Of a DNA stretch of 64,000 nucleotides, positions 1 through 12,159 are shown in pieces. This stretch comes from Candidatus Parcubacteria bacterium (GTDB taxonomy: Bacteria > Patescibacteriota > Minisyncoccia > Minisyncoccales > JAGLUP01). The stretch is from positions 2,019 through 66,018 of the forward strand of contig JAGLUP010000003.1 of the NCBI GenBank assembly GCA_023134715.1. The letters run 5' to 3'. The stretch's first letter is position 1, and every line of letters begins with the position of its first letter. Below the pieces are notes generated by a model, which was not told where the DNA came from, ran no database searches, and saw nothing but the letters and a program-made list of their open reading frames with translations. The position numbers and the translations under genes were made by a program.

Positions 1-260
1 ACCAACGCGCGAATGTCATGTTTTATCCGCCCTTCTTCATCATAAATATCTTCAGTTGTTACTTTTTCACAAGCCAATTCAACCTCTTTAATAACATCAG
101 CTCCGCATATGCCTCGCTTATGCAAGGTTTTTATTAGTGCAATTTCCACCAAAAGCTTATAGCGGGTAAAACCATTTTCAGAAAGATAATGGACAACCTC
201 CTTATCTGGATATCGATAATCTATCGGCGATATACTATCAAACACATCTTGTTTTTTCAT
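1..260 (-). CDS. purB: adenylosuccinate lyase, N-terminal part only (gene runs off window start)
   Basis: Not in ORF track (no stop in window). My translation from ATG at 260..258: MKKQDVFDSISPIDYRYPDKEVVHYLSENGFTRYKLLVEIALIKTLHKRG...GRIKHDIRAL. The SPxDxRY start and HD(I/V) motif match PurB N-termini as I remember them. GAGGTGA Shine-Dalgarno lies 8 nt upstream. Confidence 0.7.
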   Translation of the reverse strand, partial: MKKQDVFDSISPIDYRYPDKEVVHYLSENGFTRYKLLVEIALIKTLHKRGICGADVIKEVELACEKVTTEDIYDEEGRIKHDIRAL

Positions 261-299
261 TTTTTTTATTCACCTCAGTTTTGTTTTTTTTGAATATTC

Positions 300-350
300 A
301 GTTCGTAACGAACTATAGTTCTATCTTATTGAAAAAACAGCAAATGTCAA
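300..350 (-). promoter_or_regulatory. candidate purB promoter (TTGACA-N16-TAAGAT) followed by GTTCG-TAA-CGAAC hairpin
   Basis: Minus-strand TTGACA at 350..345 and TAAGAT at 328..323. Hairpin at 314..300 sits near the predicted 5' end of the mRNA. Confidence 0.4.
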
Positions 351-360
351 ATTTTTAAAT

Positions 361-385
361 AAAAAAAGAGGAAGCTTAGCTTCCT
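361..385 (-). terminator. intrinsic terminator of pyrF (GGAAGC-TTA-GCTTCC plus T-run on minus strand)
   Basis: Perfect 6-7 bp stem directly after the pyrF stop codon, followed on the minus strand by T7. Confidence 0.6.
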
Positions 386-1113
386 TAGTTTTCTTTTTCT
401 TCTATCGCTTGCTCAATTTCTTCATTGATTTTTTGAGCTTCTTCAGCTGGATTTTCTGCTTCTGTTATTGCTCTTCCTATTACCAACAAATCTGCCCCGT
501 TTTTTATTGCTTCTGAGGGCGTGTTTACTCTTTTCTGGTCGTCTTCTGACACTCCCTTTGGTCTAATTCCTGGCGTGATTTTTATTAAATCATCCAATTC
601 TGGAAATTGTTGTAGAAATAGAAGTTCTTGGGCAGAACAAACTATTGCCGGGCATCCAGCAAGAACAGCATTCCTTGCATATTGCAAAACCTTTGCCTTT
701 ACTGGTCCTCCAAGATTGATCTGGCACTCTTCTTCGCCCAACGAAGTAAGCACTGTAACGGCTGCAATTTTAGTCATTGGGAACTCTCTGCTTGAGCTTT
801 GCTGTTTTACTGCATCAACAGCAGATCTCATCATTTCTATGCCTCCGGGAGCCATTACGGTTATAATATCCACTTCCTTAATTTCATTTCTTAATTCTGC
901 GTCAATATAGATATTTACTCTATTCTTCACTGTATTTGGAATATCGTGAAGTTTTGGATCTGCCATTACGTGTCCATATTTTTGGAGCTCTTTAATGCAC
1001 CTAACTGGACCCATTATGTCAAGTAAAGCATTTGCTTTAAATCCCCAAACTTTTCCTTTTAAGCTCTTTGCTAATTTAAGAGCTTCTTCTTCGCTCATAT
1101 CATCCAATGCCAC
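385..1113 (-). CDS. pyrF: orotidine 5'-phosphate decarboxylase
   Basis: Motifs (II)VALD, DPKLHDIPNTV, ITPGIR, DDQKRVxTP, GADLLVIGRAI. The track start is a GTG. The SD-proximal ATG at 1139 is 1 nt out of frame across an A7 run (see findings). Confidence 0.85.
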   Translation of the reverse strand: MALDDMSEEEALKLAKSLKGKVWGFKANALLDIMGPVRCIKELQKYGHVMADPKLHDIPNTVKNRVNIYIDAELRNEIKEVDIITVMAPGGIEMMRSAVDAVKQQSSSREFPMTKIAAVTVLTSLGEEECQINLGGPVKAKVLQYARNAVLAGCPAIVCSAQELLFLQQFPELDDLIKITPGIRPKGVSEDDQKRVNTPSEAIKNGADLLVIGRAITEAENPAEEAQKINEEIEQAIEEKEN

Positions 1114-1281
1114 AATAATTCTACTTTCGTTTTTTTCATTTGCATCACCTCATTTTTAAGGAGCTATTTCGCTCTCCTTGGTTTTTATAATAAACAAATT
1201 AAAATTTATGTCAAATTTTAGACAATACAAAAACCCTTTTTCTGATTTTTATAATAAAAAATAAAAAAAGAAAAAAGGGTT

Positions 1282-1425
1282 TTAAATGATAGACATTTCG
1301 ATAACATTGTTGCCGTCGCCATCACGACAGCACTTTGGATTGTACACTTCTTCTTCTTCTTCTTCTTCGCATCCGTTTTCTCGTGGTTGGTTTTCGCTTC
1401 CTGCAGGTCTTCCTGTAATTTCCAT
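1282..1425 (-). CDS. hypothetical 47-aa acidic, Cys-containing peptide with poly-Glu tract
   Basis: My translation: MEITGRPAGSENQPRENGCEEEEEEEVYNPKCCRDGDGNNVIEMSII. Contains (TTC)7 = (GAA)7 at 1348..1368. No clear SD, and it is below the track length cutoff. Confidence 0.25.
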   Translation of the reverse strand: MEITGRPAGSENQPRENGCEEEEEEEVYNPKCCRDGDGNNVIEMSII

Positions 1426-1582
1426 TTTTGTGGTTGGTATATTTTATTTGCAAGGAACTATCTAAAAAAAGGAAATAATTCCTTCCTTACACTTATATAA
1501 TACTTGAAAATAAAAAAAAGTCAAGTATTCAAGTATTATTGATAAATTAGTCAATAAGAGTTAAAATAAAGACAAAAAATAT

Positions 1583-1676
1583 ATGTCAAAGAAATGCAAA
1601 TATTGCGAAATTATAAAAGGGAAAAGAAAAAGAATTAAAAGAAATAGCTGATGCTATAAGAAAAGAGATAAAATGA
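1583..1676 (+). pseudogene. remnant of a HIT-family gene (N-terminus fused to C-terminal tail by internal deletion/frameshift)
   Basis: ATG at 1583 gives MSKKCKYCEIIKGK... (compare MDCLFCKIVNKE of the intact HIT gene at 44613), then loses the frame. An adjacent frame reads GKEKELKEIADAIRKEIK-stop. Confidence 0.3.
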
Positions 1677-1706
1677 ACTCCCGGACAAGTCGGGGGTAGT
1701 TCTTTG

Positions 1707-1778
1707 TGCCCTCGAGAGGAGTCGAACCTCTATCACGAACTCCGCAAGTTCGCATTCTGTCCATTGAACTACGAGGGC
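1707..1778 (-). tRNA. tRNA-Arg, anticodon read as GCG
   Basis: Hand-folded 72-nt cloverleaf: acceptor GCCCTCG/CGAGGGC, anticodon stem CGAAC/GTTCG, loop TTGCGGA, T arm AGAGG-TTCGACT-CCTCT. Confidence 0.8.
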
Positions 1779-1820
1779 GATTACTTTAAATTAGCATAAA
1801 AAAAGGGTAAAATAAAGACA

Positions 1821-3590
1821 ATGGTGCGAAACGAGATTAAAAGTTTAATAGAGCAGGCGATAAAACAACTTCAAAAGCAAAAAAAACTTGCTAAATTTGA
1901 TATTCCTGAAATTTTAGTAGAGCATCCAGAAAATAGAGCGTATGGAGATTATAGTACAAATATTGCTTTACAGATTGCCAAGACGATTAAAAAAAATCCA
2001 AAAGAAATAGCAGAAGCTATCAAATCCAAAATCCAAAATCCAAATTATTCCAAATCAAATCCAAAATCCAAAATCCAAATTTTGGAAAAAATTGAAATAG
2101 CAGGTCCGGGATTTATCAATTTTTTTGTTTCAAAAGAATTTTTACAAAAACAAATCGCAGATGTTTTAAGGCAGGGCGATAAATTCGGTTCAAGTAAAAC
2201 AGGAAAAGGGAAAACCGTTGTTATAGATTATTCTTCTCCAAATATAGCCAAAGCGTTTGGAATAGGACATTTGCGTTCAACAATTATTGGTCAATCTCTT
2301 TATAATATCTATAAATTTTTGGGATGGAAAACTATTGGAGACAATCATCTTGGAGATTGGGGGACTCAATTCGGGAAGCTTATTTATCAAATTAAAGAAA
2401 AAAAAGTATTTCTTAAAGATTTAACAATTGAAAAATTAGAAAAATTATATATTGAATTCCACAGGGAAGCAGAAAAAAATCCAGAGATGGAAAAACAAGC
2501 AAGAGCTTGGTTTCAAAAATTAGAAGCGAGAGACAAGGAAGCTAAAAAAATTTGGCAGGATTGTAGGGCTATAAGCTTAAAAGAATTTCAGAAAATTTAC
2601 AATTTGCTTGGAATAAAAATTGATTATACGATTGGAGAAAGTTTTTATAAAGATATGGCTAAAGACATTATTGCTGAGGCAATCGAGAAAAAAGTTGCGA
2701 TTCAAAGTCAGGGAGCAATAATTATTAAATACAAAAAGGATAAGTTTCCTCCAGTTATAATTTTAAAGTCGGACAAAGCAACCACTTATTTAGCTAGAGA
2801 TTTAGCGGCTGTTAAATATAGGATATCTCGCTGGCATCCAAACCTTTTTATTTATGAAGTCGGAGCCGATCAATATCTTTTTTTAAGGCAATTATTTTTA
2901 GCTGTTGAATTTTTGGGATGGGAGAAGAAAGAAAAATTTATTCATGTTGTCCATGGATTAGTTCGCCGAAAACAAGGAAAATTTTCAACCAGAAAAGGGG
3001 AGACCATCCATTTAGAAGATGTTTTGAAAGAAGCAGTAAAAAGAGCAAGAGAGATTATTGAAAAATCAGAGACGAGCAAGGGATTTTCTAAAAAAGAAAA
3101 AGAAAAAATCGCAAAAATGGTCGGCATAGGAGCGATAAAATACAATGATCTGTCTCAACATTACAGTAAAGATATAATTTTTAATTGGGAAAAAGTTTTA
3201 AATCTTAAAGGAAATTCTGGACCTTACCTTCAATATACAATTACCCGTTGCCAAAGCGTAATAAAGAAGTCAAAAGTCCAACCTAGGAGTTTGCAAAAAG
3301 CTGATTTTGAATTATTTGATTTTAAAAAAGAAGAAGAAAATATTTTAAAAACTATTTATAAATTTCCTGAAATTGTTCAAGAGTCAGCTGATAAATTTTC
3401 GCCTAATTTGCTTTGTAATTTTGCCTTTGATTTGGCTCAAAAATATAATCATTTTTATAATATTTGTCCGATTATTCAAGCGGAAAGTATCAAGGAGAAA
3501 GAATTTAGATTGGCTTTAACTGCGGCTACGAGTCAGGTTTTAAAAAATTGCCTTAATCTTTTAGGTATTTCCGCGCCAGAAAAGATGTAA
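1821..3590 (+). CDS. argS: arginine--tRNA ligase
   Basis: 589 aa. AGPGFINFF, SSPNIAKAFGIGHLRST (HIGH-type), DNHLGDWGTQFG and a C-terminal anticodon-binding region. Confidence 0.95.
   Translation: MVRNEIKSLIEQAIKQLQKQKKLAKFDIPEILVEHPENRAYGDYSTNIALQIAKTIKKNPKEIAEAIKSKIQNPNYSKSNPKSKIQILEKIEIAGPGFINFFVSKEFLQKQIADVLRQGDKFGSSKTGKGKTVVIDYSSPNIAKAFGIGHLRSTIIGQSLYNIYKFLGWKTIGDNHLGDWGTQFGKLIYQIKEKKVFLKDLTIEKLEKLYIEFHREAEKNPEMEKQARAWFQKLEARDKEAKKIWQDCRAISLKEFQKIYNLLGIKIDYTIGESFYKDMAKDIIAEAIEKKVAIQSQGAIIIKYKKDKFPPVIILKSDKATTYLARDLAAVKYRISRWHPNLFIYEVGADQYLFLRQLFLAVEFLGWEKKEKFIHVVHGLVRRKQGKFSTRKGETIHLEDVLKEAVKRAREIIEKSETSKGFSKKEKEKIAKMVGIGAIKYNDLSQHYSKDIIFNWEKVLNLKGNSGPYLQYTITRCQSVIKKSKVQPRSLQKADFELFDFKKEEENILKTIYKFPEIVQESADKFSPNLLCNFAFDLAQKYNHFYNICPIIQAESIKEKEFRLALTAATSQVLKNCLNLLGISAPEKM
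2021..2085 (+). repeat. in-frame heptamer array (AAATCCA)x3 ... (AAATCCA)x3 inside argS
   Basis: Sequence caaatccaaaatccaaaatccaaattattccaaatcaaatccaaaatccaaaatccaaattttgg encodes KSKIQNPNYSKSNPKSKIQ. Confidence 0.85.
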
Positions 3591-3595
3591 AAAAT

Positions 3596-4327
3596 ATGAA
3601 GTTTAATATTAATACAATAAGTGATGAGAAAATTAAAGAAATAGAAAAGATAAAGAATAAACGTTCAATAATTTCGACAATTCAAAAAACAAAACAAAAA
3701 GGATTAAATCCTATTATTGCTGAAATTAAAAGAAAAAGTCCGAGCATTGGGATAATAAAAGATATTGACATTGTGGAAGCTGCGAAACAAATGGAAAAAG
3801 GAGGAGCAAGTGGAATATCAGTGCTTACAGATAAGCATTTTAGCGGGAGATTAGATGATTTAAAAAAAGCAAAACAAGCAGTAAAAATTCCAGTATTATG
3901 CAAAGATTTTTTTGTAGATGAATTTCAGATTTATCAAGCGTATGCTTGCGGCGCAGACATAGTGCTTTTAATTGCAAGGATATTAAAAGAAAAAACCAAA
4001 AGATTTGTAGAAAAAGTTCATGAATTAGGAATGGAGGCCTTGGTTGAAATACACAATGAAGAAGATTTGAAATTTGCTTTAAATTCTAACGCAAAATTAA
4101 TTGGAATAAATAACAGAGATTTGAAGACATTAAAAATAGATTTAGCTGTTACAGAAAGATTGGCGTCAAAAATTCCGCAAGACAGAATAAAAATAAGCGA
4201 AAGCGGAATCAGGAGCAGAACTGATTTAGATAGAATGTTTAATCTCGGCATTGACGCGGCTTTAATCGGAACAGAAATAATGCTGTCTGATAATATAGAA
4301 AAAAAGGTAAAAGAATTAGTTTATTAG
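3596..4327 (+). CDS. trpC: indole-3-glycerol phosphate synthase
   Basis: IIAEIKRKSPS, ISVLTD, CKDFF, EIHNEE, GINNRDL, ISESGI motifs. Confidence 0.85.
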   Translation: MKFNINTISDEKIKEIEKIKNKRSIISTIQKTKQKGLNPIIAEIKRKSPSIGIIKDIDIVEAAKQMEKGGASGISVLTDKHFSGRLDDLKKAKQAVKIPVLCKDFFVDEFQIYQAYACGADIVLLIARILKEKTKRFVEKVHELGMEALVEIHNEEDLKFALNSNAKLIGINNRDLKTLKIDLAVTERLASKIPQDRIKISESGIRSRTDLDRMFNLGIDAALIGTEIMLSDNIEKKVKELVY

Positions 4328-4338
4328 TATTTAATTTA

Positions 4339-4361
4339 AAGAGCGAAAAGCTCTTTTTTTT
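4339..4361 (+). terminator. intrinsic terminator after trpC
   Basis: AGAGC-GAAAA-GCTCT followed by T8. Confidence 0.6.
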
Positions 4362-4420
4362 GAAGAAAAATTTGTTAAAATAAAAAAACAGCTGAATGCA
4401 GCTGAGAATAAAAAAAATGT

Positions 4421-4633
4421 TTATTTAAATCTTTCTTTAGGAATTTTTGACTGTTTAATAATTGCCATTAAGGTACCAATTGGAATAGGTTTAGATTTTC
4501 CATGTAATGGAACAGGGACGATTATATTAGTTTTAAGATTTTTCCAAATCATATGACTTTCTTTTTGGCGGGAAAGCATAAATTCATTTTCTTTTAAGAT
4601 TTTTATTAATTTTTTGGCGCTGATTGGCCGCAT
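4421..4633 (-). CDS. hicA: HicA-family mRNA interferase toxin
   Basis: 70 aa. SAKKLIKILKENEF...SHMIW...PVPLHG...IPIGTLMAIIKQSKI pattern typical of HicA/YcfA. Minus-strand terminator CAGCTG-CATT-CAGCTG+T7 at 4404..4382. Confidence 0.8.
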   Translation of the reverse strand: MRPISAKKLIKILKENEFMLSRQKESHMIWKNLKTNIIVPVPLHGKSKPIPIGTLMAIIKQSKIPKERFK

Positions 4634-4647
4634 AAATATTTTTTGGA

Positions 4648-4908
4648 TTAAAATACTTTTTGAGGTAGAGCAATTTTTATTTCATCAACAATGGGTCTAT
4701 TAATTTTTAAAGGTATTTCTTGCTTTTGAGAGATTAATTCCTCAATCCATAATTCTAAAATTTCTTTTGCTTTTTCTTTAGCTTCTTCAAAAGTTCTTCC
4801 AAAGGTAATACAGCCCGGAAAATCAGGGAAAGAAACATTATAGCCACCTTCTTCAGCTGGGTCAAACACGGCAAAATATGATGAAATTTTTTGAATTTTC
4901 TTTAACAT
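4648..4908 (-). CDS. hicB: HicB-family antitoxin (UPF0150)
   Basis: 86 aa. FDPAEEGGYNVSFPDFPGCITFGRTFEEA motif, upstream partner of hicA. Promoter TTGACA-N17-TAATCT ends 9 nt before the ATG. Confidence 0.8.
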   Translation of the reverse strand: MLKKIQKISSYFAVFDPAEEGGYNVSFPDFPGCITFGRTFEEAKEKAKEILELWIEELISQKQEIPLKINRPIVDEIKIALPQKVF

Positions 4909-4953
4909 ATTGATTTTAGATTACCAATTTTAAAAAAGAATGTCAACAATAGA

Positions 4954-5012
4954 TTGACAAAGTTGGGATATTTGGTATGCTTTGCTGTAGAAGGAGCTAA
5001 GCTCCTTTTTTT
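4954..5012 (+). promoter_or_regulatory. candidate ileS promoter (TTGACA-N16-TATGCT) plus leader hairpin AAGGAGC-TAA-GCTCCTT followed by T7
   Basis: TTGACA at 4954..4959, hairpin 4991..5007, T-run to 5012. The -35 is back-to-back with the hicB -35 (TGTCAAcaatagaTTGACA). Confidence 0.45.
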
Positions 5013-5062
5013 ATTTTAGATTTATTTGAAAAAAAGTGGAAAAGATGATATTTTAGAAGTAT

Positions 5063-8000
5063 ATGGAATTTAGTTTGCCTAAGAATGAGGAAAAGATTTT
5101 AAAGTTTTGGAAAGAACACAAAATTTTTGAGAAATCAATTGAACAGCGCAAAGGAGCGCGGATTTTTAGTTTTTATGATGGTCCTCCTTTTGCCACTGGC
5201 CTGCCTCATTATGGCCATATTTTGGCAACTACTATTAAAGACGCTGTTTTGCGCTATTGGGCAATGCAGGGATATCAAGTTCCCCGCCGAGTTGGCTGGG
5301 ATTGCCATGGTTTGCCAGTCGAAAATTTAATTGAAAAAGAGCTGGGATTGAAAACTAAAAAAGATATTGAAAAATTAGGCATTGGAAAATTTAACGAGTC
5401 GTGCCATGGTTCTGTTTTTCGATGCGTTAAAGAGTTTCAAAAGACATTGGAACGAGTCGGCCGTTGGGCTGATTATTCTAACGCTTACGCCACAATGGAC
5501 AATAATTACATAGAGTCGGTTTGGTGGGTGCTTGCTCAATTACATAAAAAAGGATTGGTTTATAAAGATTTTCGTGTAACTCCTTATTGTCCTCGTTGCG
5601 GCACTGCTCTTTCTAATTTTGAATTAAACCAGCCAGGGGCTTATCAAGAGATAGAAGATGAATCAATATATATAAAATTTTCGCTAAAAAAGAAAAAAAA
5701 TACTTATTTGTTGGTTTGGACAACCACCCCGTGGACTTTGCCGGCAAATACAGCTATTGCTATAAATCCTAAATTTGATTATGTGAAAATAAAAATTAAA
5801 AATGAGTATTTTATTTTAGCCAAAGAAAGATTAAATGTGTTAAGTAGTGATTATAAAGTTATAGAAAAATTTAAAGGAAAAGAGTTGATTGGGTTAGAGT
5901 ATAAAGCGTTATATCAAAAAATAGCAGACAAAACACAAAAAACAGGAAATATCTACAAAGTTGTGGCAGCGGATTTCGTGAGTTTGGAGGATGGAACCGG
6001 AATGGTTCATATCGCGCCGGCTTTTGGGGTAGATGATATGGAATTGGGCAAAAAAGAGAATTTGCCTGTTTTAATAACAGTAGATTTAGAAGGAAAAATT
6101 GTTAAGGATTCAGATATTCCAGGAGAGGGAAGATTTGTTAAAACAGCCGATAAAGACATTAAAGAGGATTTAGAAAAAAGAGATTTACTATTTAAGCAAG
6201 AGAAAATAATTCATAAGTATCCCTTTTGCTGGCGGTGCGACACGCCATTGCTTTATTATCCTCTTGATAGCTGGTATGTGGCTGTAACAAAATTTAAAGA
6301 ACAATTAATTAAAAATAATAAAAAAATCAGATGGGTGCCTGCTCATCTTAAAGAGGGTCGGTTTGGCAAGTGGCTTGAAAAAGCAAGAGATTGGTCGTTT
6401 TCCCGCAACCGTTATTGGGGAGCGCCTCTTCCAATTTGGGAGTGTAAAGAATGCGGACATAATAAGGTTATTAGCTCAAAAGAAGACCTGAAAAAGCAAA
6501 AATTTTCAAATAATAAATATTTTACTCTTAGACACGGATTAGCTCAGCAAAATGTGAAAGGAATTATTAGCATAACCCCTAATAATAATTATCATTTAAC
6601 CAAAATTGGAGAAATTCAGATAAAGAAAGCGGCAAGAGAAATAAAAAAACTTCTCAAAACACAAAAACTTGATTTAATTTTTGCTTCTGATTTTTTAAGA
6701 ACCAAAGAAACAGCGGAGATTATTGCTAAAGAAACTATGGCTAAAATAAAGTTTGATAAACGGCTTTGGGATATTAATTTAGGAGTTTGGGACGGCAAGT
6801 CAGTTTTACGATTTAAAGCAGAATTTTTAAAATCAAATAAAAAGCTTTTTTATGAAGCGCCGGAAAAAGGAGAGACATGGGTTAATTGTCGGAAAAGAAT
6901 GATTGATTTTATCCAGGATGTTGAGAAAAAATATAAAAATAAAAATATTTTAATTGTTTCCCATGGAGACCCTTTATGGCTTTTAGGCGGCGCGATGCAA
7001 GGATTAGAAAACGAGGAAATGTTTGGTTTTCTGGACAGAAAAAAGGGAGGCGTTAAGCCAGGAGAGCTTCAAGAAATTGAATACAGAAAATTTCCTTACA
7101 ATGAACAAGGAAAATTAGATTTTCATCGTCCTTATATTGATGAGGTAAAATTTATTTGTTCTAAGTGCGGCAAAAAGATGGAAAGAGTAAAAGAGGTTTT
7201 TGATTGTTGGTTTGAAAGCGGTTCAATGCCATACGCGCAATGGCATTATCCTTTTGAAAATAAAGAATTTGTTGAAAAAACTTTTCCTGCGGATTTTATA
7301 GCAGAAGGCATAGATCAAACCAGGGGATGGTTTTATACTTTAAATGTTCTTTCAACCGCTCTTTTCAATGAACCGGCTTTTAAAAATGTTGTTGTTAACG
7401 GATTAGTATTAGGCGAGGACGGGAAAAAACTTTCAAAACGTTTGAAAAATTATACTGCCCCAGAAATTATTTTTGACAACCAAGGAGCTGACGCTTTGCG
7501 TTATTTTTTGCTTTCCAGTGCTCAAATTGGCGAAAATTATATTGTTTCTGAAAAAAGAATTGCCGAGGTTTTGCGTCGAACAATTTTAACATTTTGGAAC
7601 TCTTTTATTTTTTTTGATACTTATGCTGATAAAAAATTTAGGTCAAGCAAAATCAAAAAATCAAAAAATATTTTAGATAAATGGATTATTTCTAAATTAA
7701 ATAGTTTGGATTTAGAAGTAGTTGAGTTGATGAATAAGTATGAGTTAACTAAAGCCACTCGCTTATTTGATGATTTTATTAATGATCTTTCAAATTGGTA
7801 TATTCGTCGGTCTAGAAGACGACTTCAAAAACCAAAAACAAAACAAGAAAAAGAAGAAGCGTCCCAGATTTTATATTACTTGCTTTTAAGTTTAACTAAA
7901 TTATTAGCTCCATTTACTCCTTTTATCAGCGAGGAAGTTTATCAAAAATTAGGAGGCAGAAAAGAGTCGGTTCACTTAGAGGACTATCCAAAGCCGGATA

Positions 8001-8524
8001 AAAAATTGATTGATAATGATTTAGAAAAAAAAATGAAGCGAGTACGAGAGATTACAGCTTTAGCTTTGGCAGAGCGAGCAGAAATAGGAATAAAAGTCAG
8101 ACAACCACTTAAAAAGCTAAAAATTAAAACACAAAACACAAAAATTCCAGAGGAATTATTAGAGCTAATAAAAGAAGAGGTTAATGTTAAAGAGATAGTT
8201 TTTGATAAAAAAATTAAAAAAGAGATAGAACTTGATGTAAAGATTACTTCAGAGCTAAAAGAAGAGGGAATGCTCAGAGAGGTTATTCGTCAGATTCAGG
8301 TAATGCGGAAAAAAGCTGGGTATAAGCCAAGACACAGAGTTTTGGTCCGCTATTTTGGTTCTTCTTTCTTAAATAAAGTTTTAGCCAGAAATAAAGAGTT
8401 TATTCTAAAAGAAGTTGTGGCTGAAGATTTTCGAGCAGGAGATAGACCGAGAATGGTTTTTGATATTGAACGGGAGGTAAAAGTTAATCAAGAAAAACTC
8501 TGGCTGGGAATCAGAAAAATTTAA
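5063..8524 (+). CDS. ileS: isoleucine--tRNA ligase (type 2-like) with inserted histidine-phosphatase domain
   Basis: 1153 aa. PPFATGLPHYGH (HIGH), WDCHGLP, editing-domain motifs, KLSKRLKN (KMSKS), DCWFESGSMPYAQ. Extra RHG...SHG domain encoded at about 6515..7085. Confidence 0.95.
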   Translation: MEFSLPKNEEKILKFWKEHKIFEKSIEQRKGARIFSFYDGPPFATGLPHYGHILATTIKDAVLRYWAMQGYQVPRRVGWDCHGLPVENLIEKELGLKTKKDIEKLGIGKFNESCHGSVFRCVKEFQKTLERVGRWADYSNAYATMDNNYIESVWWVLAQLHKKGLVYKDFRVTPYCPRCGTALSNFELNQPGAYQEIEDESIYIKFSLKKKKNTYLLVWTTTPWTLPANTAIAINPKFDYVKIKIKNEYFILAKERLNVLSSDYKVIEKFKGKELIGLEYKALYQKIADKTQKTGNIYKVVAADFVSLEDGTGMVHIAPAFGVDDMELGKKENLPVLITVDLEGKIVKDSDIPGEGRFVKTADKDIKEDLEKRDLLFKQEKIIHKYPFCWRCDTPLLYYPLDSWYVAVTKFKEQLIKNNKKIRWVPAHLKEGRFGKWLEKARDWSFSRNRYWGAPLPIWECKECGHNKVISSKEDLKKQKFSNNKYFTLRHGLAQQNVKGIISITPNNNYHLTKIGEIQIKKAAREIKKLLKTQKLDLIFASDFLRTKETAEIIAKETMAKIKFDKRLWDINLGVWDGKSVLRFKAEFLKSNKKLFYEAPEKGETWVNCRKRMIDFIQDVEKKYKNKNILIVSHGDPLWLLGGAMQGLENEEMFGFLDRKKGGVKPGELQEIEYRKFPYNEQGKLDFHRPYIDEVKFICSKCGKKMERVKEVFDCWFESGSMPYAQWHYPFENKEFVEKTFPADFIAEGIDQTRGWFYTLNVLSTALFNEPAFKNVVVNGLVLGEDGKKLSKRLKNYTAPEIIFDNQGADALRYFLLSSAQIGENYIVSEKRIAEVLRRTILTFWNSFIFFDTYADKKFRSSKIKKSKNILDKWIISKLNSLDLEVVELMNKYELTKATRLFDDFINDLSNWYIRRSRRRLQKPKTKQEKEEASQILYYLLLSLTKLLAPFTPFISEEVYQKLGGRKESVHLEDYPKPDKKLIDNDLEKKMKRVREITALALAERAEIGIKVRQPLKKLKIKTQNTKIPEELLELIKEEVNVKEIVFDKKIKKEIELDVKITSELKEEGMLREVIRQIQVMRKKAGYKPRHRVLVRYFGSSFLNKVLARNKEFILKEVVAEDFRAGDRPRMVFDIEREVKVNQEKLWLGIRKI

Positions 8525-8530
8525 AATTTT

Positions 8531-9247
8531 ATGTTTACTCATTATCGAACGCAGGGCATTATTATAAAAAAAATTGATAAGGGAGAAGCTGCTCGGATTT
8601 TTACAATCTATACTCGCGATTTTGGGAAATTAAAAGTTTTAGCCAAAGCAGAAAGAAAAATTAAGTCAAAATTAAGAGCAGGGTTGGAACTTTTTTATTT
8701 ATCAGAAATTGAGTTTATTCAAGGCAAGAACTATAAAACCCTTACTGATGTTGTTTTAATTGACAGTTTTCAGAGTATAAGAGAAGATTTAGAACGATTA
8801 AAAATCGCCTATAAAATTTCCGAAATTTTGGATAATTTTATAAAGGAGGAACAGGCAGACAAAAAAATTTGGGGCTTATTAAGTGAAACTTTTGATAGAT
8901 TAAATAATTTAAAATTAGAAATTATATACTATTATTTCCTTTGGAATTTTTTTTCAATTTTAGGATATCAGCCAGAGCTTTATCTTTGTTCTATTTGTCA
9001 AAACAAGCTTGCCCCTGAAAAACTTTATTTTAGTTATAAAGATGGTGGGATAATTTGCAGCCGATGTTTTGAGAAAATAAAATCAGAAGAATTTGAAGCA
9101 ACAACTTCAGAAACAGTTAAGATTTTACGCCTTATTTTGAAAAGAAAATGGGAAGTTGTTAAACATCTTAAAATAGAGAACAAAAATATAGAAAATCTTA
9201 AGAATATTTCTAATTATTATATTTCTGAATTGCAAAATAATTTTTAA
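8531..9247 (+). CDS. recO: DNA repair protein RecO
   Basis: 238 aa. N-terminal OB-fold pattern (GIIIKKIDKGEAARIFTIYTRDFGKL) and CxxC...CxxC zinc motif. Confidence 0.8.
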   Translation: MFTHYRTQGIIIKKIDKGEAARIFTIYTRDFGKLKVLAKAERKIKSKLRAGLELFYLSEIEFIQGKNYKTLTDVVLIDSFQSIREDLERLKIAYKISEILDNFIKEEQADKKIWGLLSETFDRLNNLKLEIIYYYFLWNFFSILGYQPELYLCSICQNKLAPEKLYFSYKDGGIICSRCFEKIKSEEFEATTSETVKILRLILKRKWEVVKHLKIENKNIENLKNISNYYISELQNNF

Positions 9248-9262
9248 AAAGTTATTATAAAG

Positions 9263-10066
9263 ATGATGAATATAAAACAAAAAGGGTTTACTATCGTAGA
9301 GCTTTTAGTTGTTCTTGCTATATTTGGAATTTTATCTGGTCTTGTTGTAGTAACACTTAAAAGCATGAAAGACGAAGCTCGGCTGAAAAAAGCAATGGAA
9401 TTTGCTCATACCGTGAGAGTTAGCTTGGGTTCTGACTTAGTCGGCGAATGGACTTTTGACGATTCCAGCGATTTAGGAAGAGATACCAGCGGTTATGAAA
9501 ACCATGCAACTGTTCACGGAACTACTCCAGTTGATGGAATCGTTAGGGGAGCTTTGAGTTTTAATGGAACCAGTGACCATATTGACTGTGGAAACAATGA
9601 GAGTTTATGCTCTAATGATAATTCATGGACTATAGAAGCGTGGTTTAACTGGGGCGGCAAAAGTGGAGAGAATATAATTTATAATAAAGAAAATTTATAT
9701 GAGGCAAGAGTTAATAATGGTTATTTTCAATATGCATGGCAGCCTCATTGGCATTGGGATGGAGGAACAGATTTTTCTGTAGATTCAAATAAGTGGCATC
9801 ATGCAGTAGTTGTTTATGATAAGTCGAGCCAATATGTTTATAAAGATGGAGAGCTTGTTTATACAAGGCCTCAAGAAGGGAATATAGGAAATAATACTAA
9901 TAAATTATTAATAGGCGCTCGCGGTCATACATCTCCTCGCAATTATTTTGATGGCGCAATCGATGAAGTGCGGATTTATAATCGGGCATTGACAACAGCG
10001 GAGATTCAAAAGTATTATGCCGAAGGCGCTGCTAAATATGGAATATGTCTTTTAGAAAAAAAATAA
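9263..10066 (+). CDS. type IV pilin-like protein with LamG/concanavalin-type lectin head
   Basis: Prepilin motif KGFTIVELLVVLAIFGIL. C-terminal LamG_3-like pattern (GALSFNGTSDHID..., WHHAVVVYD, FDGAIDEVRIYNRAL). Confidence 0.8.
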   Translation: MMNIKQKGFTIVELLVVLAIFGILSGLVVVTLKSMKDEARLKKAMEFAHTVRVSLGSDLVGEWTFDDSSDLGRDTSGYENHATVHGTTPVDGIVRGALSFNGTSDHIDCGNNESLCSNDNSWTIEAWFNWGGKSGENIIYNKENLYEARVNNGYFQYAWQPHWHWDGGTDFSVDSNKWHHAVVVYDKSSQYVYKDGELVYTRPQEGNIGNNTNKLLIGARGHTSPRNYFDGAIDEVRIYNRALTTAEIQKYYAEGAAKYGICLLEKK

Positions 10067-11700
10067 CAATTTTAATTATAGTTTTAACCTTGGGATTAGG
10101 GATAGTCGGCTATTGGGAGCATCAGAAAAATCTTTATTCAAAAGATATTTTAAAATTGGAAATTTTAGGCCCGGAAACAGCAGAAACAGGAGAAGAGATT
10201 GAATATACGGTAAAATATAAGAATAACGGAAATGTTCGATTAGAAGACGCTAAGCTTATTTTTGAATATCCAGAATATTCTTTAATCAAGCAAGGCGATT
10301 CATTAAGGGTAGAACAGGAATTAGACGATATTTATCCTGGGGAGGAAAAAACCTTTCACTTTGAATGTCGGCTTTTAGGGAAAGAGAAAGAGATGAAAAC
10401 TGCCAAGGCCTTTATTTTTTATCGTCCTAAAGATTTAAAAGCTCGATATGAGTCAAAAACAAGTTTTAGCACAAAGATTGAATTTATCCCTTTGACTTTT
10501 GAATTTGACCTTTCTTCTAAAGTTGACAGTATGAAAGAAATTTCTTTTGCTCTAAATTATTTTTCCAACATAGATTATTCCTTAACTGATTTAAGAGTTA
10601 AAATTGAATATCCTTCTGGATTTGAATTTTTAGAGAGTCAGCCTCAATCTTTAGAAAAAATAGAATGGGAAATTGGCTCTTTAAATAAAGCTGAAGGAGG
10701 AAGGATAAAAATTAAAGGAAAACTGCAAGGAGAAATAGGAGATCAAAAAACTTTTCGAGCGATTTTGGGCATTTGGCAGGAAGGAGAGTTTATCCTTTTA
10801 AAAGAGGCGGTTAAAACAGTAGAAATTATTGAACCCTCTTTATACATAAATCAGGAAATTAATGGTTCTTCTCAATATACTGCTGCTCCTGGCGATTTTT
10901 TGCATTATGAGATTTTCTTTAAAAATATTGGAGAAGAGGCGTTTGAGAAATTATTTTTGGTAGTAAAACTTGAAGGCAAGCCATTTGATTTAGAATCTTT
11001 AAAAACGTCAGAAGGGGAATATAAATCTGGAGATAATTCAATTATTTGGGATTGGAGAAAAGTTTCAAAACTTCGATTTTTGGACGCTCAAGAAGAGGGG
11101 GTAGTTGAATTTTGGGTGAACTTAAAAGAGGAATGGCAAGTGTCTGGACCCCAAGATAAAAACTCTTTTATTAAAAATACAGTTATTCTTTCTCAAACCA
11201 AAGAAGAATTTAAAACAAAAATCAATTCAAAAATAGAATTGACTCAAAAAGGTTATTTTGAGCAGGAATTTTGGGAAAATTCAGGAACAATTCCTCCAAA
11301 AGTTGGAGAAACAACTGCTTATACAATTTTGTGGCAGGCTAAGAATTTTTATAACGACGCAGAGAATGTAAAAGTAAAAGCTATTTTGCCTCAAGAAGTT
11401 AAATTAACCGGCGAAATTTTTCCAAAAGAATCAAAGCTTAGTTTTGATTTTAAATCCAGGGAGCTTGTTTGGGACATAGGAGATCTTAAAGCAGGTGAAG
11501 AAAATCCCGTGCTTGCCTTTCAAGTTGTCTTAACTCCAAGTTCTCAACAAAAAGGTCAGACACCGTCTCTTATTGGAGAAGCAAGAATTATTTGCGAAGA
11601 CCAGTGGACAGAGCAGATTTTAGAAAGCAATGCCGAAACTGTCAACACCACTTTACCGGATGATGAAACAGTTAGCGAAGAACAGGGAATAGTTCAATAG
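10045..11700 (+). CDS. membrane-anchored surface protein with repeated Ig-like (DUF11/CARDB-like) segments; function unknown
   Basis: 551 aa. N-terminal TM helix, repeated segments of type GEEIEYTVKYKNNGNV. Overlaps the preceding pilin gene by 22 nt. Confidence 0.55.
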   Translation: MSFRKKITILIIVLTLGLGIVGYWEHQKNLYSKDILKLEILGPETAETGEEIEYTVKYKNNGNVRLEDAKLIFEYPEYSLIKQGDSLRVEQELDDIYPGEEKTFHFECRLLGKEKEMKTAKAFIFYRPKDLKARYESKTSFSTKIEFIPLTFEFDLSSKVDSMKEISFALNYFSNIDYSLTDLRVKIEYPSGFEFLESQPQSLEKIEWEIGSLNKAEGGRIKIKGKLQGEIGDQKTFRAILGIWQEGEFILLKEAVKTVEIIEPSLYINQEINGSSQYTAAPGDFLHYEIFFKNIGEEAFEKLFLVVKLEGKPFDLESLKTSEGEYKSGDNSIIWDWRKVSKLRFLDAQEEGVVEFWVNLKEEWQVSGPQDKNSFIKNTVILSQTKEEFKTKINSKIELTQKGYFEQEFWENSGTIPPKVGETTAYTILWQAKNFYNDAENVKVKAILPQEVKLTGEIFPKESKLSFDFKSRELVWDIGDLKAGEENPVLAFQVVLTPSSQQKGQTPSLIGEARIICEDQWTEQILESNAETVNTTLPDDETVSEEQGIVQ

Positions 11701-11714
11701 AATTACTAATTTTC

Positions 11715-12159
11715 AATTTCTAATTTCTATTAAATCTTCAATGACTAAATTTTCAAACAGCAAGAACAAAGAATATGATTTAGAGGAAAGAACAGCGAAA
11801 TTTAGCGAAGATATAATAGAATTTATAAAGAGCATTAAGCGAGATGATATTAACAGAAATATTATTACACAATTAGCAAGAGCAGCAACCTCTGTTGGAG
11901 CAAATTGCTGCGAAGCAAATGCCTCAAGCTCAAAACGAGATTTTAGAAATAAGATATACATCTGTAAAAAGGAAACTAATGAAACAAAATACTGGCTTAG
12001 AATATTGGCTAAATATTACCCTGAGTCAAAAGAAAAAATAAGAGTTTTCTGGAAAGAAGCTCATGAATTTCATCTAATTTTTCAAAAAATCACCAACACG
12101 CTGGACAAGAAAAAAGTTTAGAAATTAAAAAATTAGACATTTAATAGAAATTAGAAATT
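11715..12159. mobile_element. IVS-like cassette: four-helix-bundle ORF bounded by perfect 21-bp inverted repeats built from AATTTCT heptamers
   Basis: 11715..11735 AATTTCTAATTTCTATTAAAT is the exact reverse complement of 12139..12159. Extra AGAAATT units extend to about 12173. Confidence 0.6.
11741..12121 (+). CDS. four-helix-bundle protein (23S rRNA intervening-sequence protein family)
   Basis: 126 aa. QLARAATSVGANCCEA, RDFRNKIYICKKETNETKYWL motifs typical of the family. Confidence 0.8.
   Translation: MTKFSNSKNKEYDLEERTAKFSEDIIEFIKSIKRDDINRNIITQLARAATSVGANCCEANASSSKRDFRNKIYICKKETNETKYWLRILAKYYPESKEKIRVFWKEAHEFHLIFQKITNTLDKKKV

What the first reader, a model, noticed from the sequence alone, without database searches (positions are those of the whole stretch)
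6500..7120. Histidine-phosphatase (PGAM-like) domain inserted into isoleucyl-tRNA synthetase
Seen: about 190 residues sit between the zinc-knuckle region (WECKECGH...) and the conserved DFHRPYIDEV...CSKCG...DCWFESGSMPY block. They carry branch-1 histidine-phosphatase signatures in order: FTLRHGLAQQN (RHG), LTKIGEIQIKKAA, DLIFASDFLRTKETAEII, LWDINLGVWDG, PEKGETW, ILIVSHGDP (second catalytic His). Established: as I recall, type 2 IleRS has only a short linker here. Inference: an apparently intact phosphatase or mutase module is grafted near the KMSKS / tRNA-acceptor side of an essential synthetase. It might dephosphorylate a nucleotide or tRNA-linked substrate, or act in regulation. I am not aware of this architecture being described.
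Basis: partly seen in the sequence, partly recalled or inferred. Interest (0 to 1): 0.65.

Follow-up and report, generated by a model that had tools for sequence, protein, structure and literature searches.

The report
Phosphatase domain built into isoleucyl-tRNA synthetase
The isoleucine-charging enzyme of this tiny uncultured (Patescibacteria/CPR) bacterium carries a complete, apparently active phosphatase inside its catalytic body; hundreds of related bacteria have the same phosphatase either inserted there or as the gene just upstream, and I found no paper describing it or its purpose.

Summary
ORF 5063-8524 (+) is one 1153-aa type 2 isoleucyl-tRNA synthetase (IleRS). About 205 residues (aa 480-684) replace a roughly 8-residue loop inside the zinc-binding CP3 subdomain. 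They form a branch-1 histidine-phosphatase domain (Pfam E = 2e-29) with the catalytic residues in place.

It is not an assembly chimera, and it is not rare. The identical protein is recovered in an independent assembly. At least 150 protein clusters at 50% identity, and 65 of 80 species-level genome loci, carry the same in-frame insertion.

In 14 other loci the same phosphatase is a free-standing gene of about 190 aa directly upstream of ileS. The two layouts never co-occur, and they switched at least about 4 times. Some close relatives lack the module at this locus, so it is accessory.

The catalytic residues are almost invariant across 156 domain copies. The nearest characterised relatives are short small-molecule phosphatases (PspA, PhoE, CobC), not mutases. 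The substrate is unknown.

My best reading is an active phosphomonoesterase that works physically coupled to IleRS on something bound at or near the synthetase. No searchable paper describes it, and databases name it only as a tRNA ligase. I rate it a new variant of a known kind, with moderately high interest.

The parts
5063..8524 (+). ileS: 1153-aa type 2 isoleucyl-tRNA synthetase with a nested phosphatase domain (stop codon included)
   Evidence: Single ORF. TIGR00392 934.9 bits against cut-off 621.4. AF2 model has pLDDT 89.8 and pTM 0.84. It superposes on PmIleRS2 8C8V (TM 0.84, normalised to target) and TtIleRS 1ILE (TM 0.93).
5207..5218 (+). HIGH signature (HYGH, aa 49-52)
5720..5737 (+). 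Editing-domain TTTPWT motif (aa 220-225)
   Evidence: these residues are invariant in alignment A3
6443..6454 (+). First CxxC of the CP3 zinc knuckle (C461, C464)
   Evidence: C461 is invariant and C464 at least 90% conserved in A3. Equivalent to the zinc motif of TtIleRS CP3 (PMC7191050).
6500..7114 (+). Inserted segment, aa 480-684 (about 205 aa in place of about 8 aa in solved type 2 IleRS)
   Evidence: Alignment to 1ILE and 8C8U. Insert-less relatives have 51-56 aa across the whole knuckle.
6512..7084 (+). Histidine-phosphatase (branch 1) domain, aa 484-674
   Evidence: Pfam PF00300 covers aa 489-655, E = 2.2e-29. The family HMM covers aa 484-674, 237.6 bits. The AF2 domain model has pLDDT 85.4. 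Foldseek to PDB phosphatases gives TM 0.62-0.70.
6530..6538 (+). RHG motif: R490, nucleophile H491, G492
   Evidence: Across 156 domain copies R is present in 142/142 and H in 141/142 where aligned.
6698..6700 (+). Second phosphate-pocket arginine, R546
   Evidence: 154/155
6770..6772 (+). Acidic proton-donor position, D570 (Glu in most inserted homologues)
   Evidence: Glu 142 + Asp 11 of 155
6962..6964 (+). Second catalytic histidine, H634 (in ILIVSHGDP)
   Evidence: 155/156
7085..7114 (+). C-terminal linker (aa 675-684, RKFPYNEQGK) leading back into IleRS 'LDFHRPY'
   Evidence: Modelled at pLDDT about 90-94.
7157..7168 (+). Second CxxC of the CP3 zinc knuckle (C699, C702)
   Evidence: invariant in A3
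7427..7441 (+). KMSKS signature (KLSKR, aa 789-793)
1821..3590 (+). argS (arginyl-tRNA synthetase), the conserved upstream neighbour of the module
   Evidence: Pfam. ArgRS lies upstream on the same strand within 3 kb in 42/51 inserted loci and 15/16 upstream-gene loci.
4421..4908 (-). hicA/hicB toxin-antitoxin pair in the argS-ileS interval, the slot where relatives carry the free-standing phosphatase gene
   Evidence: hicB Pfam. hicA is called in the identical locus L089, with coordinates transferred by an offset of +2062.
8531..9247 (+). recO, the conserved downstream neighbour
   Evidence: Pfam; synteny

Best explanation
The segment is a catalytically competent branch-1 histidine phosphatase (a phosphomonoesterase that works through a phospho-histidine intermediate on H491). 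It is nested in the zinc-stapled CP3 subdomain of a type 2 IleRS. The two CxxC pairs hold the entry and exit points of the insert together, so the synthetase fold is preserved. In this group of Patescibacteria the phosphatase is a dedicated but dispensable partner of IleRS. It is made either as a separate protein from a gene immediately upstream of ileS, or, as here, as an internal domain. Shown: domain identity, intact and strongly conserved catalytic residues, the insertion site, the exclusive genetic linkage to ileS in two interchangeable layouts, and the fact that close relatives can lack it. Inferred: the two proteins act as one physical unit, and the phosphatase hydrolyses a phosphomonoester on something bound at or released from IleRS, rather than on a free metabolite. 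My favoured specific guess, which is speculative, is removal of a blocking phosphate. The target could be the 3' end of tRNA-Ile (3'-phosphate, or the product of 3'-pyrophosphorylation by toxSAS-type toxins), a 3'-phosphorylated adenine nucleotide, or a phosphorylated residue of the synthetase itself (HipA-type kinases hit the KMSKS serine of other class I synthetases). That would make it a built-in repair or immunity function.
For: Domain and catalytic residues. Fold: AF2 full length pLDDT 89.8, pTM 0.84, with both linkers modelled confidently; domain-only model; Foldseek. Site; CP3 assignment from PMC7191050 and PMC10485003. Linkage: all 79 scorable GTDB species loci have the phosphatase either in frame inside ileS (65) or directly upstream (14). 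All six free-standing homologues whose context I saw also lie upstream of ileS: five looked up by their own sequence, including two divergent ones, and one found beside an IleRS-seeded hit. Gaps are 1 nt in four, about 24 nt in one, and in one a Fic gene intervenes. No locus has both layouts. There were at least 4 layout switches on the IleRS tree, against about 13 expected for random labels. Recurrent recruitment: tandem double or triple copies, and a second, different His_Phos copy at another IleRS loop in P0185. One IleRS carries a Nudix domain as well as the phosphatase. tRNA-specific 3'-end pyrophosphorylating toxins exist (PMC11559606).
Against: No substrate evidence of any kind. The nearest characterised relatives act on small metabolites (phosphoserine, glucosyl-3-phosphoglycerate, alpha-ribazole phosphate, a riboflavin intermediate). 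Three of four insert-less IleRS relatives chosen without reference to the phosphatase have no phosphatase gene at the locus, so IleRS works without it. The linkage survey covered the 80 genomic loci most similar to the window's insert, out of 387; more distant family members could lie elsewhere. The geometry of the phosphatase active site relative to the IleRS synthetic site, editing site or tRNA path could not be computed. A second copy at a different IleRS loop suggests that precise orientation may not matter, which also fits a passenger enzyme. The family was not found on viral contigs, so there is no direct sign of an arms race.
Confidence: 0.5

Rival explanations
1. Passenger metabolic enzyme. 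The phosphatase has an ordinary, IleRS-independent metabolic role (for example a phosphoserine-, sugar-phosphate- or PhoE-type phosphatase). It is merely co-expressed with ileS, and the insertion is a tolerated gene fusion with no functional coupling.
For: The nearest sequence and structure relatives are small-molecule phosphatases. The module is dispensable at the locus in close relatives. It can sit at more than one IleRS loop. CP3 is a structurally variable subdomain among IleRSs (PMC7191050), so it may simply tolerate insertions.
Against: Linkage to ileS was kept in every case examined despite at least 4 rearrangements between layouts and possible exchange of the free-standing gene between IleRS lineages. 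An independent metabolic gene would be expected to drift elsewhere in the genome at least sometimes. Internal insertion into an essential enzyme was retained in at least 150 clusters at 50% identity. The free-standing form lies immediately upstream of ileS, with a 1-nt gap in four of the six contexts seen, which suggests coupled, roughly equimolar expression.
Confidence: 0.25
2. Ligand-sensing or structural domain. The domain no longer matters as an enzyme. Instead it binds a phosphorylated metabolite or tRNA and tunes IleRS activity or stability.
For: Phosphatase folds can be re-used as binding modules. The confident, rigid-looking linkers in the AF2 model would suit allosteric coupling.
Against: The nucleophile His, both Arg, the acid and the second His are conserved in 141/142 to 155/156 copies across very divergent lineages, and in the free-standing forms too. 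That is the pattern expected for catalysis, although a phosphate-binding sensor would also keep part of the pocket.
Confidence: 0.1
3. Cofactor-dependent phosphoglycerate mutase (glycolytic dPGM) fused to IleRS.
For: The best NCBIfam phosphatase-type hit is the archaeal dPGM model NF038349 (94 bits for the insert alone).
Against: That score is far below the model's cut-off of 225. pgm_1 (TIGR01258) scores 23 against 81.7. In Foldseek the true mutases align with much larger rmsd (5-11 A) than the short phosphatases (3.5-4 A). The domain is about 190 aa, the size of the phosphatase-type members.
Confidence: 0.03
4. Assembly chimera or annotation artefact.
For: Read coverage was not available for inspection.
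Against: Identical protein in two assemblies made by different pipelines. The same in-frame junctions occur in 65 species-level genomes as single ORFs (the one apparent split, L037, is a scaffold N-gap). Composition is continuous across the insert.
Confidence: 0.01

Closest known systems
Type 2 (eukaryote-like) bacterial IleRS, e.g. T. thermophilus IleRS (1ILE) and P. megaterium IleRS2 (8C8U/8C8V)
   Same: Same enzyme body: HIGH, KMSKS, CP1 editing domain, zinc-binding CP3 and type 2 C-terminal domains. TM-scores normalised to the target are 0.84-0.93.
   Different: Those enzymes have about 8 residues where this one has a 205-residue phosphatase domain.
Free-standing ~190-aa His_Phos_1 proteins of Patescibacteria encoded directly upstream of ileS (e.g. 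P0005 in L004, P0076 in L006, P0113 in L096)
   Same: Same subfamily: 41-51% identical to the insert (alignment A2), with shared motifs NxYF[IL]LRHG and ILIVSHGDPLWLL and the same argS-...-ileS-recO neighbourhood.
   Different: They are separate polypeptides that end right after the last strand (GELRKL). Their IleRS keeps the short CP3 loop.
Short branch-1 histidine phosphatases of known function: H. thermophilus phosphoserine phosphatase PspA (4IJ5), Geobacillus PhoE (1H2E), CobC (6NRU/6E4B), M. tuberculosis GpgP Rv2419c (4QIH), riboflavin-pathway HFP (9MMH)
   Same: Same fold and catalytic set. Profile E-values run from 3e-23 to 8e-13, and Foldseek TM from 0.62 to 0.70.
   Different: Only 20-25% identical. 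None of their NCBIfam equivalog models reaches its cut-off. None is associated with a tRNA synthetase.
IleRS with an extra N-acetyltransferase domain (NCBIfam NF040702, ileS_w_GNAT)
   Same: A precedent for a bacterial IleRS that carries a second enzyme domain.
   Different: Different added domain. The window protein scores 331 against a cut-off of 1999. I did not examine where the GNAT domain sits.
Bifunctional RNase H / acid phosphatase (NF005567, Rv2228c type)
   Same: A branch-1 histidine phosphatase fused to a nucleic-acid enzyme. The insert matches its phosphatase half (E = 2.9e-20).
   Different: That is an end-to-end fusion, not a nested insertion. The partner enzyme differs, and the score is below cut-off (72.9 against 326).
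CP1 editing domain of class Ia synthetases
   Same: A hydrolytic domain nested in a connective peptide of the Rossmann fold and acting on a synthetase-bound substrate. This is a functional analogy only.
   Different: Unrelated fold and chemistry: ester hydrolysis of mischarged tRNA, as opposed to phosphomonoester hydrolysis.

Membership tests
Histidine phosphatase superfamily, branch 1 (Pfam PF00300) | Profile match above the curated gathering score | tested here: met
   103 bits against 21.7, E = 2.2e-29, aa 489-655
Histidine phosphatase superfamily, branch 1 (Pfam PF00300) | N-terminal RHG motif with the nucleophilic histidine | tested here: met
   R490-H491-G492; conserved in 141-142 of 142 homologous copies
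Histidine phosphatase superfamily, branch 1 (Pfam PF00300) | Second Arg and second His completing the phosphate pocket, plus an acidic proton donor | tested here: met
   R546, H634 and D570 (Asp in place of the more usual Glu)
Histidine phosphatase superfamily, branch 1 (Pfam PF00300) | Alpha/beta phosphoglycerate-mutase-like fold | tested here: met
   AF2 pLDDT 85-95. Foldseek probability 1.00 and TM 0.62-0.70 to solved members.
Histidine phosphatase superfamily, branch 1 (Pfam PF00300) | Phosphomonoesterase or mutase activity through a phospho-histidine intermediate | not testable with these tools
   Needs enzymology
Cofactor-dependent phosphoglycerate mutase (dPGM) | Equivalog-level profile score | tested here: not met
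   NF038349 94 against 225; TIGR01258 23 against 81.7; NF002339 24 against 316
Named small phosphatases (PspA, phosphoserine phosphatase 1, CobC, GpmB, SixA) | Equivalog-level profile score | tested here: not met
   58 against 350; 64 against 277; 72 against 163; 54 against 261; 29 against 74.5
Isoleucyl-tRNA synthetase (TIGR00392), type 2 | Equivalog score, HIGH and KMSKS motifs, CP1 editing motif, type 2 C-terminal domains | tested here: met
   934.9 against 621.4. HYGH, KLSKR and TTTPWT present. DUF5915 C-terminal domain. Best structural matches are type 2 IleRS.
Isoleucyl-tRNA synthetase (TIGR00392), type 2 | Isoleucine activation and tRNA-Ile charging | not testable with these tools
   Inferred from conservation. 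No second ileS is seen in the 64-kb window, but the rest of the genome was not examined.
Mupirocin-resistance IleRS MupA/MupB | Exception-model score | tested here: not met
   794 and 793 against 1900
ileS_w_GNAT (NF040702) | Exception-model score and a GNAT domain | tested here: not met
   331 against 1999; no GNAT Pfam hit
Intein or mobile-element insertion in a housekeeping gene | Hint or homing-endonuclease domain, splice-junction residues, flanking repeats | tested here: not met
   The only Pfam family in the insert is His_Phos_1. The insert is conserved as part of the mature ORF in divergent lineages.

The most novel reading that the evidence does not exclude
The IleRS-coupled phosphatase is a built-in repair or immunity activity. 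It strips an inactivating phosphate (or, together with a Nudix-type step, a pyrophosphate) from the 3' end of tRNA-Ile or from the synthetase's own catalytic loop. This would make Ile-tRNA synthesis resistant to tRNA- or synthetase-phosphorylating toxins. If so, it would be a second kind of 'proofreading' domain in an aminoacyl-tRNA synthetase, one that acts on phosphate blocks rather than on wrong amino acids.
Probability: 0.2. Interest if true: 0.85.

Novelty: new variant of a known kind. Interest (0 to 1): 0.62.

Why it matters
Aminoacyl-tRNA synthetases are known to pick up extra domains. A second, non-editing hydrolase nested in the catalytic body of a bacterial synthetase would still be unusual. 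Here it is kept catalytically intact across hundreds of lineages, and it alternates with an operon-partner form. The two layouts form a 'Rosetta stone' pair, which gives a strong and directly testable prediction that the phosphatase and IleRS work together. Finding the substrate could expose an unknown step in tRNA or synthetase maintenance or regulation in Patescibacteria, a huge and poorly understood part of bacterial diversity. There is also a practical point: annotation pipelines label these proteins only as 'class I tRNA ligase family protein' or 'isoleucyl-tRNA synthetase', so the extra enzyme is invisible to users.

Tried and rejected
1. Chimeric assembly. Rejected: the identical protein appears in two assemblies and the junctions recur widely.

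2. Split ileS in L037 as an evolutionary intermediate. Rejected: it is a scaffold N-gap with duplicated flanks.

3. Origin by copying the upstream gene together with the first codons of ileS (the linker 'FPYNEQGKL' against the N-terminus 'FSLPKNEEKIL'). A profile comparison put the N-terminal window only about 2 SD above the mean, and several unrelated windows scored higher. Not supported.

4. Recurrence of the Nudix insertion seen in P0265. The word-indexed search found no relatives, so I treat it as a singleton.

5. The first word-indexed search with the insert suggested that fused forms are very rare (2 of 120). The exhaustive HMMER search showed this was a sensitivity artefact.

6. Universal association of IleRS with the phosphatase in this clade. 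Rejected: 3 of 4 IleRS-seeded loci lack it.

7. Phage origin or carriage. No relatives on IMG/VR contigs.

8. An RNA leader (for example a T-box) upstream of ileS. None at Rfam gathering thresholds in 1-12000.

9. Direction of evolution (upstream gene to insert, or the reverse). The NJ trees of IleRS and of the phosphatase disagree in detail, so this is unresolved.

10. Literature. Four searches plus targeted reading found no description.
Full report
**1. The observation**

The region lies inside one uninterrupted ORF, window 5063-8524 on the + strand, 1153 aa. The protein is an isoleucyl-tRNA synthetase (IleRS). It matches TIGR00392 at 934.9 bits against a cut-off of 621.4. It also matches Pfam tRNA-synt_1, Anticodon_1 and the type 2 C-terminal DUF5915. 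HYGH, TTTPWT and KLSKR are all in place.

Pfam His_Phos_1 (PF00300) matches aa 489-655 with E = 2.2e-29. Against T. thermophilus IleRS (1ILE), residues 4-479 align to 9-479 and residues 685-1010 align to 488-821. Against P. megaterium IleRS2 the picture is the same. So about 205 residues (aa 480-684, window 6500-7114) replace a loop of about 8 residues.

**2. Where the domain sits**

The insert lies between C461-x2-C464 (WECKECGH) and C699-x2-C702 (CSKCG). These four cysteines are invariant or nearly so in 76 homologues.

In the Candida albicans IleRS paper, CP3 (residues 473-534) is the subdomain that joins CP2 to the second half of the Rossmann fold. Its T. thermophilus equivalent contains a zinc-binding motif, and its topology differs between IleRSs (PMC7191050). 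Query residue 477 aligns to Candida residue 496, so the host site is CP3. In the P. megaterium nomenclature the catalytic core resumes at residue 513, which places the site at the end of the connective-peptide region (PMC10485003).

A zinc knuckle that staples the two flanks together is a natural place for a nested domain. This last point is inference.

An AlphaFold2 model built on 76 homologues is confident: mean pLDDT 89.8, pTM 0.84, the insert mostly 90-95, and both linkers about 90. The body of the model superposes on type 2 IleRS structures, with TM normalised to target of 0.84 for 8C8V and 0.93 for 1ILE. I could not extract coordinates. The position of the phosphatase pocket relative to the synthetic site, the editing site or the tRNA path is therefore not known. 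In sequence, KLSKR lies about 105 residues downstream of the insert.

**3. Not an artefact and not a rarity**

The identical protein, in the identical gene context, occurs on a 391-kb ENA scaffold and on an independently assembled Logan contig from run SRR13892601. Two fragmentary contigs from other samples show the same junctions at 57% and 42% identity.

An exhaustive HMMER search with a junction-spanning profile, against 1.84 billion representatives clustered at 50% identity, gave 367 proteins at E <= 1e-30. Of the best 150, 115 span both junctions in a single stretch at about residues 450-760 of proteins of about 1100-1275 aa. Most of the rest are truncated fragments.

A scan of GTDB species-representative genomes found 387 matching stretches. 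The best 80 loci are all Patescibacteria: Nealsonbacteria, Paceibacter, and Jorgensen-, Azam-, Specht-, Lipton-, Harrison- and Uhrbacteria, among others. In 65 of them the phosphatase lies in frame between the N- and C-parts of ileS, as a single ORF. The one apparent exception, L037, is a scaffold gap.

The window's own protein is in NCBI nr as 'class I tRNA ligase family protein [Candidatus Parcubacteria bacterium]'. Other sources call its homologues 'isoleucyl-tRNA synthetase'. No source name mentions the phosphatase.

**4. The key new fact: an operon-partner form**

The closest relatives of the insert found in the first search are free-standing proteins of about 190 aa (41-51% identical in alignment A2). 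I saw the genomic context of six of them. Five were looked up by their own sequence, including two of the most divergent. One turned up beside an IleRS-seeded hit (L093). All six lie upstream of ileS. The gap is 1 nt in four of them (for example '...FRQL* c ATG' in L004) and about 24 nt in L093. In L095 a Fic gene intervenes.

Of the 80 genome loci, 14 have this layout, and one (L077) is too truncated to score. Their IleRS keeps the ordinary short CP3 loop. No locus has both layouts. The argS-(phosphatase)-ileS-recO neighbourhood is conserved: ArgRS lies upstream within 3 kb in 42/51 inserted loci and in 15/16 upstream-gene loci. The window has the same synteny. Its argS-ileS interval instead holds an IGPS gene and a hicAB pair. 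The 64-kb window holds no second copy of the phosphatase, and the LeuRS gene at 24564-26879 has no insert.

**5. Evolutionary dynamics**

An NJ tree of the IleRS body (754 columns, 67 sequences) needs at least 4 switches between layouts. The bootstrap distribution is 4 switches in 70 replicates and 5 in 30. Label permutation gives a mean of 12.9 and a minimum of 10. There is one deep clade of the upstream-gene form, and three small upstream groups nested among inserted forms.

The phosphatase tree is shorter and noisier. It groups 11 of 14 free-standing copies together regardless of their IleRS lineage. For example, L088 and L050 have phosphatases 75% identical, yet their IleRS bodies sit in different clades. 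The direction of change and the role of gene exchange are unresolved. What is robust is that the link to ileS survives every rearrangement.

The link is not obligatory for IleRS, however. I took four insert-less IleRS relatives chosen only by IleRS similarity. In three of them argS is directly followed by ileS with no phosphatase gene, and one has the upstream gene. The module is therefore accessory.

Further variants exist:
- two or three tandem phosphatase domains in the same site (P0253, P0254, P0263, P0267)
- an intact canonical copy plus a second, more PhoE-like copy in a loop at the start of the anticodon-binding domain (P0185)
- one IleRS with a canonical Nudix domain inserted just before the editing-site WTTTPWTL motif, in addition to the phosphatase (P0265). 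No relatives were found.

**6. Is it an enzyme, and of what kind?**

Across 156 domain copies from 150 inserted-form representatives that are at most 50% identical to each other, conservation at the catalytic positions is as follows (counts are over copies where the position is aligned):

| Position | Conserved |
|---|---|
| First Arg | 142/142 |
| Nucleophile His | 141/142 |
| Second Arg | 154/155 |
| Acid (142 Glu + 11 Asp) | 153/155 |
| Second His | 155/156 |

The same residues are invariant or nearly so in the free-standing forms. The window has R490, H491, R546, D570 and H634. This is the signature of selection for catalysis.

The closest solved relatives, by profile and by fold, are short phosphomonoesterases: H. 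thermophilus phosphoserine phosphatase, PhoE, CobC, Rv2419c, a riboflavin-pathway phosphatase and E. histolytica PSP. Profile E-values run from 3e-23 to about 1e-12. TM is 0.62-0.70 and rmsd 3.5-4.4 A. True mutases align much worse. All dPGM and named-phosphatase equivalog models are far below their cut-offs. So it is a phosphatase-type member of branch 1, of a distinct subfamily (motifs NxYF[IL]LRHG and ILIVSHGDPLWLL), with no transferable substrate assignment.

**7. How it most likely works**

Shown: an intact phosphatase module that is genetically tied to ileS in two interchangeable layouts, and that is dispensable.

Inferred: the close upstream placement and the domain fusion are the classic signs of proteins that act as one unit. 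Tethering only helps if the substrate is bound at or released from IleRS, which means tRNA-Ile, an adenine nucleotide, or the synthetase itself. Several features fit an accessory protective or regulatory role better than core metabolism: the patchy distribution, the repeated rearrangement, the tandem amplification, the independent second acquisition, and an occasional Nudix companion.

Concrete candidates follow. All are speculative, and they draw on my own knowledge apart from the toxSAS papers listed:
- removal of a 3'-phosphate or pyrophosphate block from tRNA-Ile. toxSAS toxins pyrophosphorylate the CCA end of specific tRNAs (PMC11559606).
- hydrolysis of 3'-phosphorylated adenine nucleotides.
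- reversal of phosphorylation of the KMSKS-loop serine. HipA-family kinases do this to GltX and TrpS.

I put about 0.5 on the general 'IleRS-coupled active phosphatase acting on an IleRS-proximal substrate', and about 0.2 on the repair/immunity version. The main rival, at about 0.25, is a functionally independent metabolic phosphatase that merely travels with ileS. A non-catalytic sensor or structural role gets about 0.1. A true mutase gets about 0.03, and an assembly artefact about 0.01.

**8. Comparison with what is known, and novelty**

The body is an ordinary type 2 IleRS. The insert is a bona fide member of the histidine phosphatase superfamily. The membership features I could test were met; enzymatic activity is not testable here. 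It is not a member of any named equivalog family.

Precedents for extra enzyme domains on related proteins exist: NCBIfam's ileS_w_GNAT, and the RNase H/acid phosphatase fusion. The CP1 editing domain is a functional analogy for a hydrolase nested in a connective peptide.

I found no paper describing an IleRS-histidine-phosphatase combination. A 2026 preprint that annotated domain architectures in about 96,000 IleRS sequences does not mention it in its main text.

I rate it a new variant of a known kind, namely synthetase domain accretion. It is present but unremarked in public databases. Interest is 0.62: the architecture and the two-layout relationship would surprise a synthetase specialist and give a cleanly testable hypothesis, but the function is unknown.

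Noticed in passing
window 4421-4908 (-): A hicA/hicB toxin-antitoxin pair sits immediately upstream of ileS. This is the argS-ileS interval, where related genomes carry the free-standing phosphatase gene.
   Followed up: partly
window 3596-4327 (+): An indole-3-glycerol-phosphate synthase gene (IGPS, E = 8e-73) lies directly after argS. A lone tryptophan-pathway gene is unexpected in a reduced Patescibacteria genome. The rest of the pathway was not looked for.
   Followed up: no
L058 6549-7532: Between the free-standing phosphatase gene and ileS lies a 327-aa ORF. It starts with a duplicated IleRS N-terminus (MSIDFPKIEKKILKFWQENKI) fused to unrelated sequence. This looks like an insertion that duplicated the 5' end of ileS.
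   Followed up: partly
L095 4307-5434: A Fic_N+Fic domain gene (AMPylase/kinase-type toxin family) is wedged between the free-standing phosphatase gene and ileS.
   Followed up: no
P0265 (1382 aa), residues 226-343: An IleRS with a canonical Nudix domain (GGKVDGDETFEQAAHREAEEELG) inserted just before the editing-site WTTTPWTL motif, in addition to the His_Phos domain in CP3. No relatives were found by the word-indexed search.
   Followed up: partly
P0185 (1419 aa), residues 871-1061; also P0253, P0254, P0263, P0267: P0185 is an IleRS with a second, PhoE-like His_Phos domain in a loop at the start of the anticodon-binding domain. The other four proteins have two or three tandem His_Phos domains in the CP3 site. 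P0185 also lacks the CP3 zinc cysteines.
   Followed up: partly
window 5063-8524; names: NCBI labels inserted-form proteins 'class I tRNA ligase family protein', while insert-less relatives get 'isoleucine--tRNA ligase'. The insert seems to stop the annotation pipeline from giving the specific name, even though TIGR00392 still scores above its cut-off here.
   Followed up: no
window 24564-26879 (+): A short (771 aa) leucyl-tRNA synthetase with no insertion at the equivalent connective-peptide position.
   Followed up: partly
window 9263-11700 (+): Downstream of recO lies a type IV pilin-like protein (N_methyl motif) with a Laminin_G_3/ConA-like lectin domain. It is followed by a 551-aa protein with faint DUF7619/CLIPPER hits. 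This pair is conserved next to recO in related loci.
   Followed up: no
window 1707-1778 (-): A tRNA gene (Rfam RF00005, 64.8 bits) just upstream of argS, on the opposite strand. Its anticodon was not determined.
   Followed up: no
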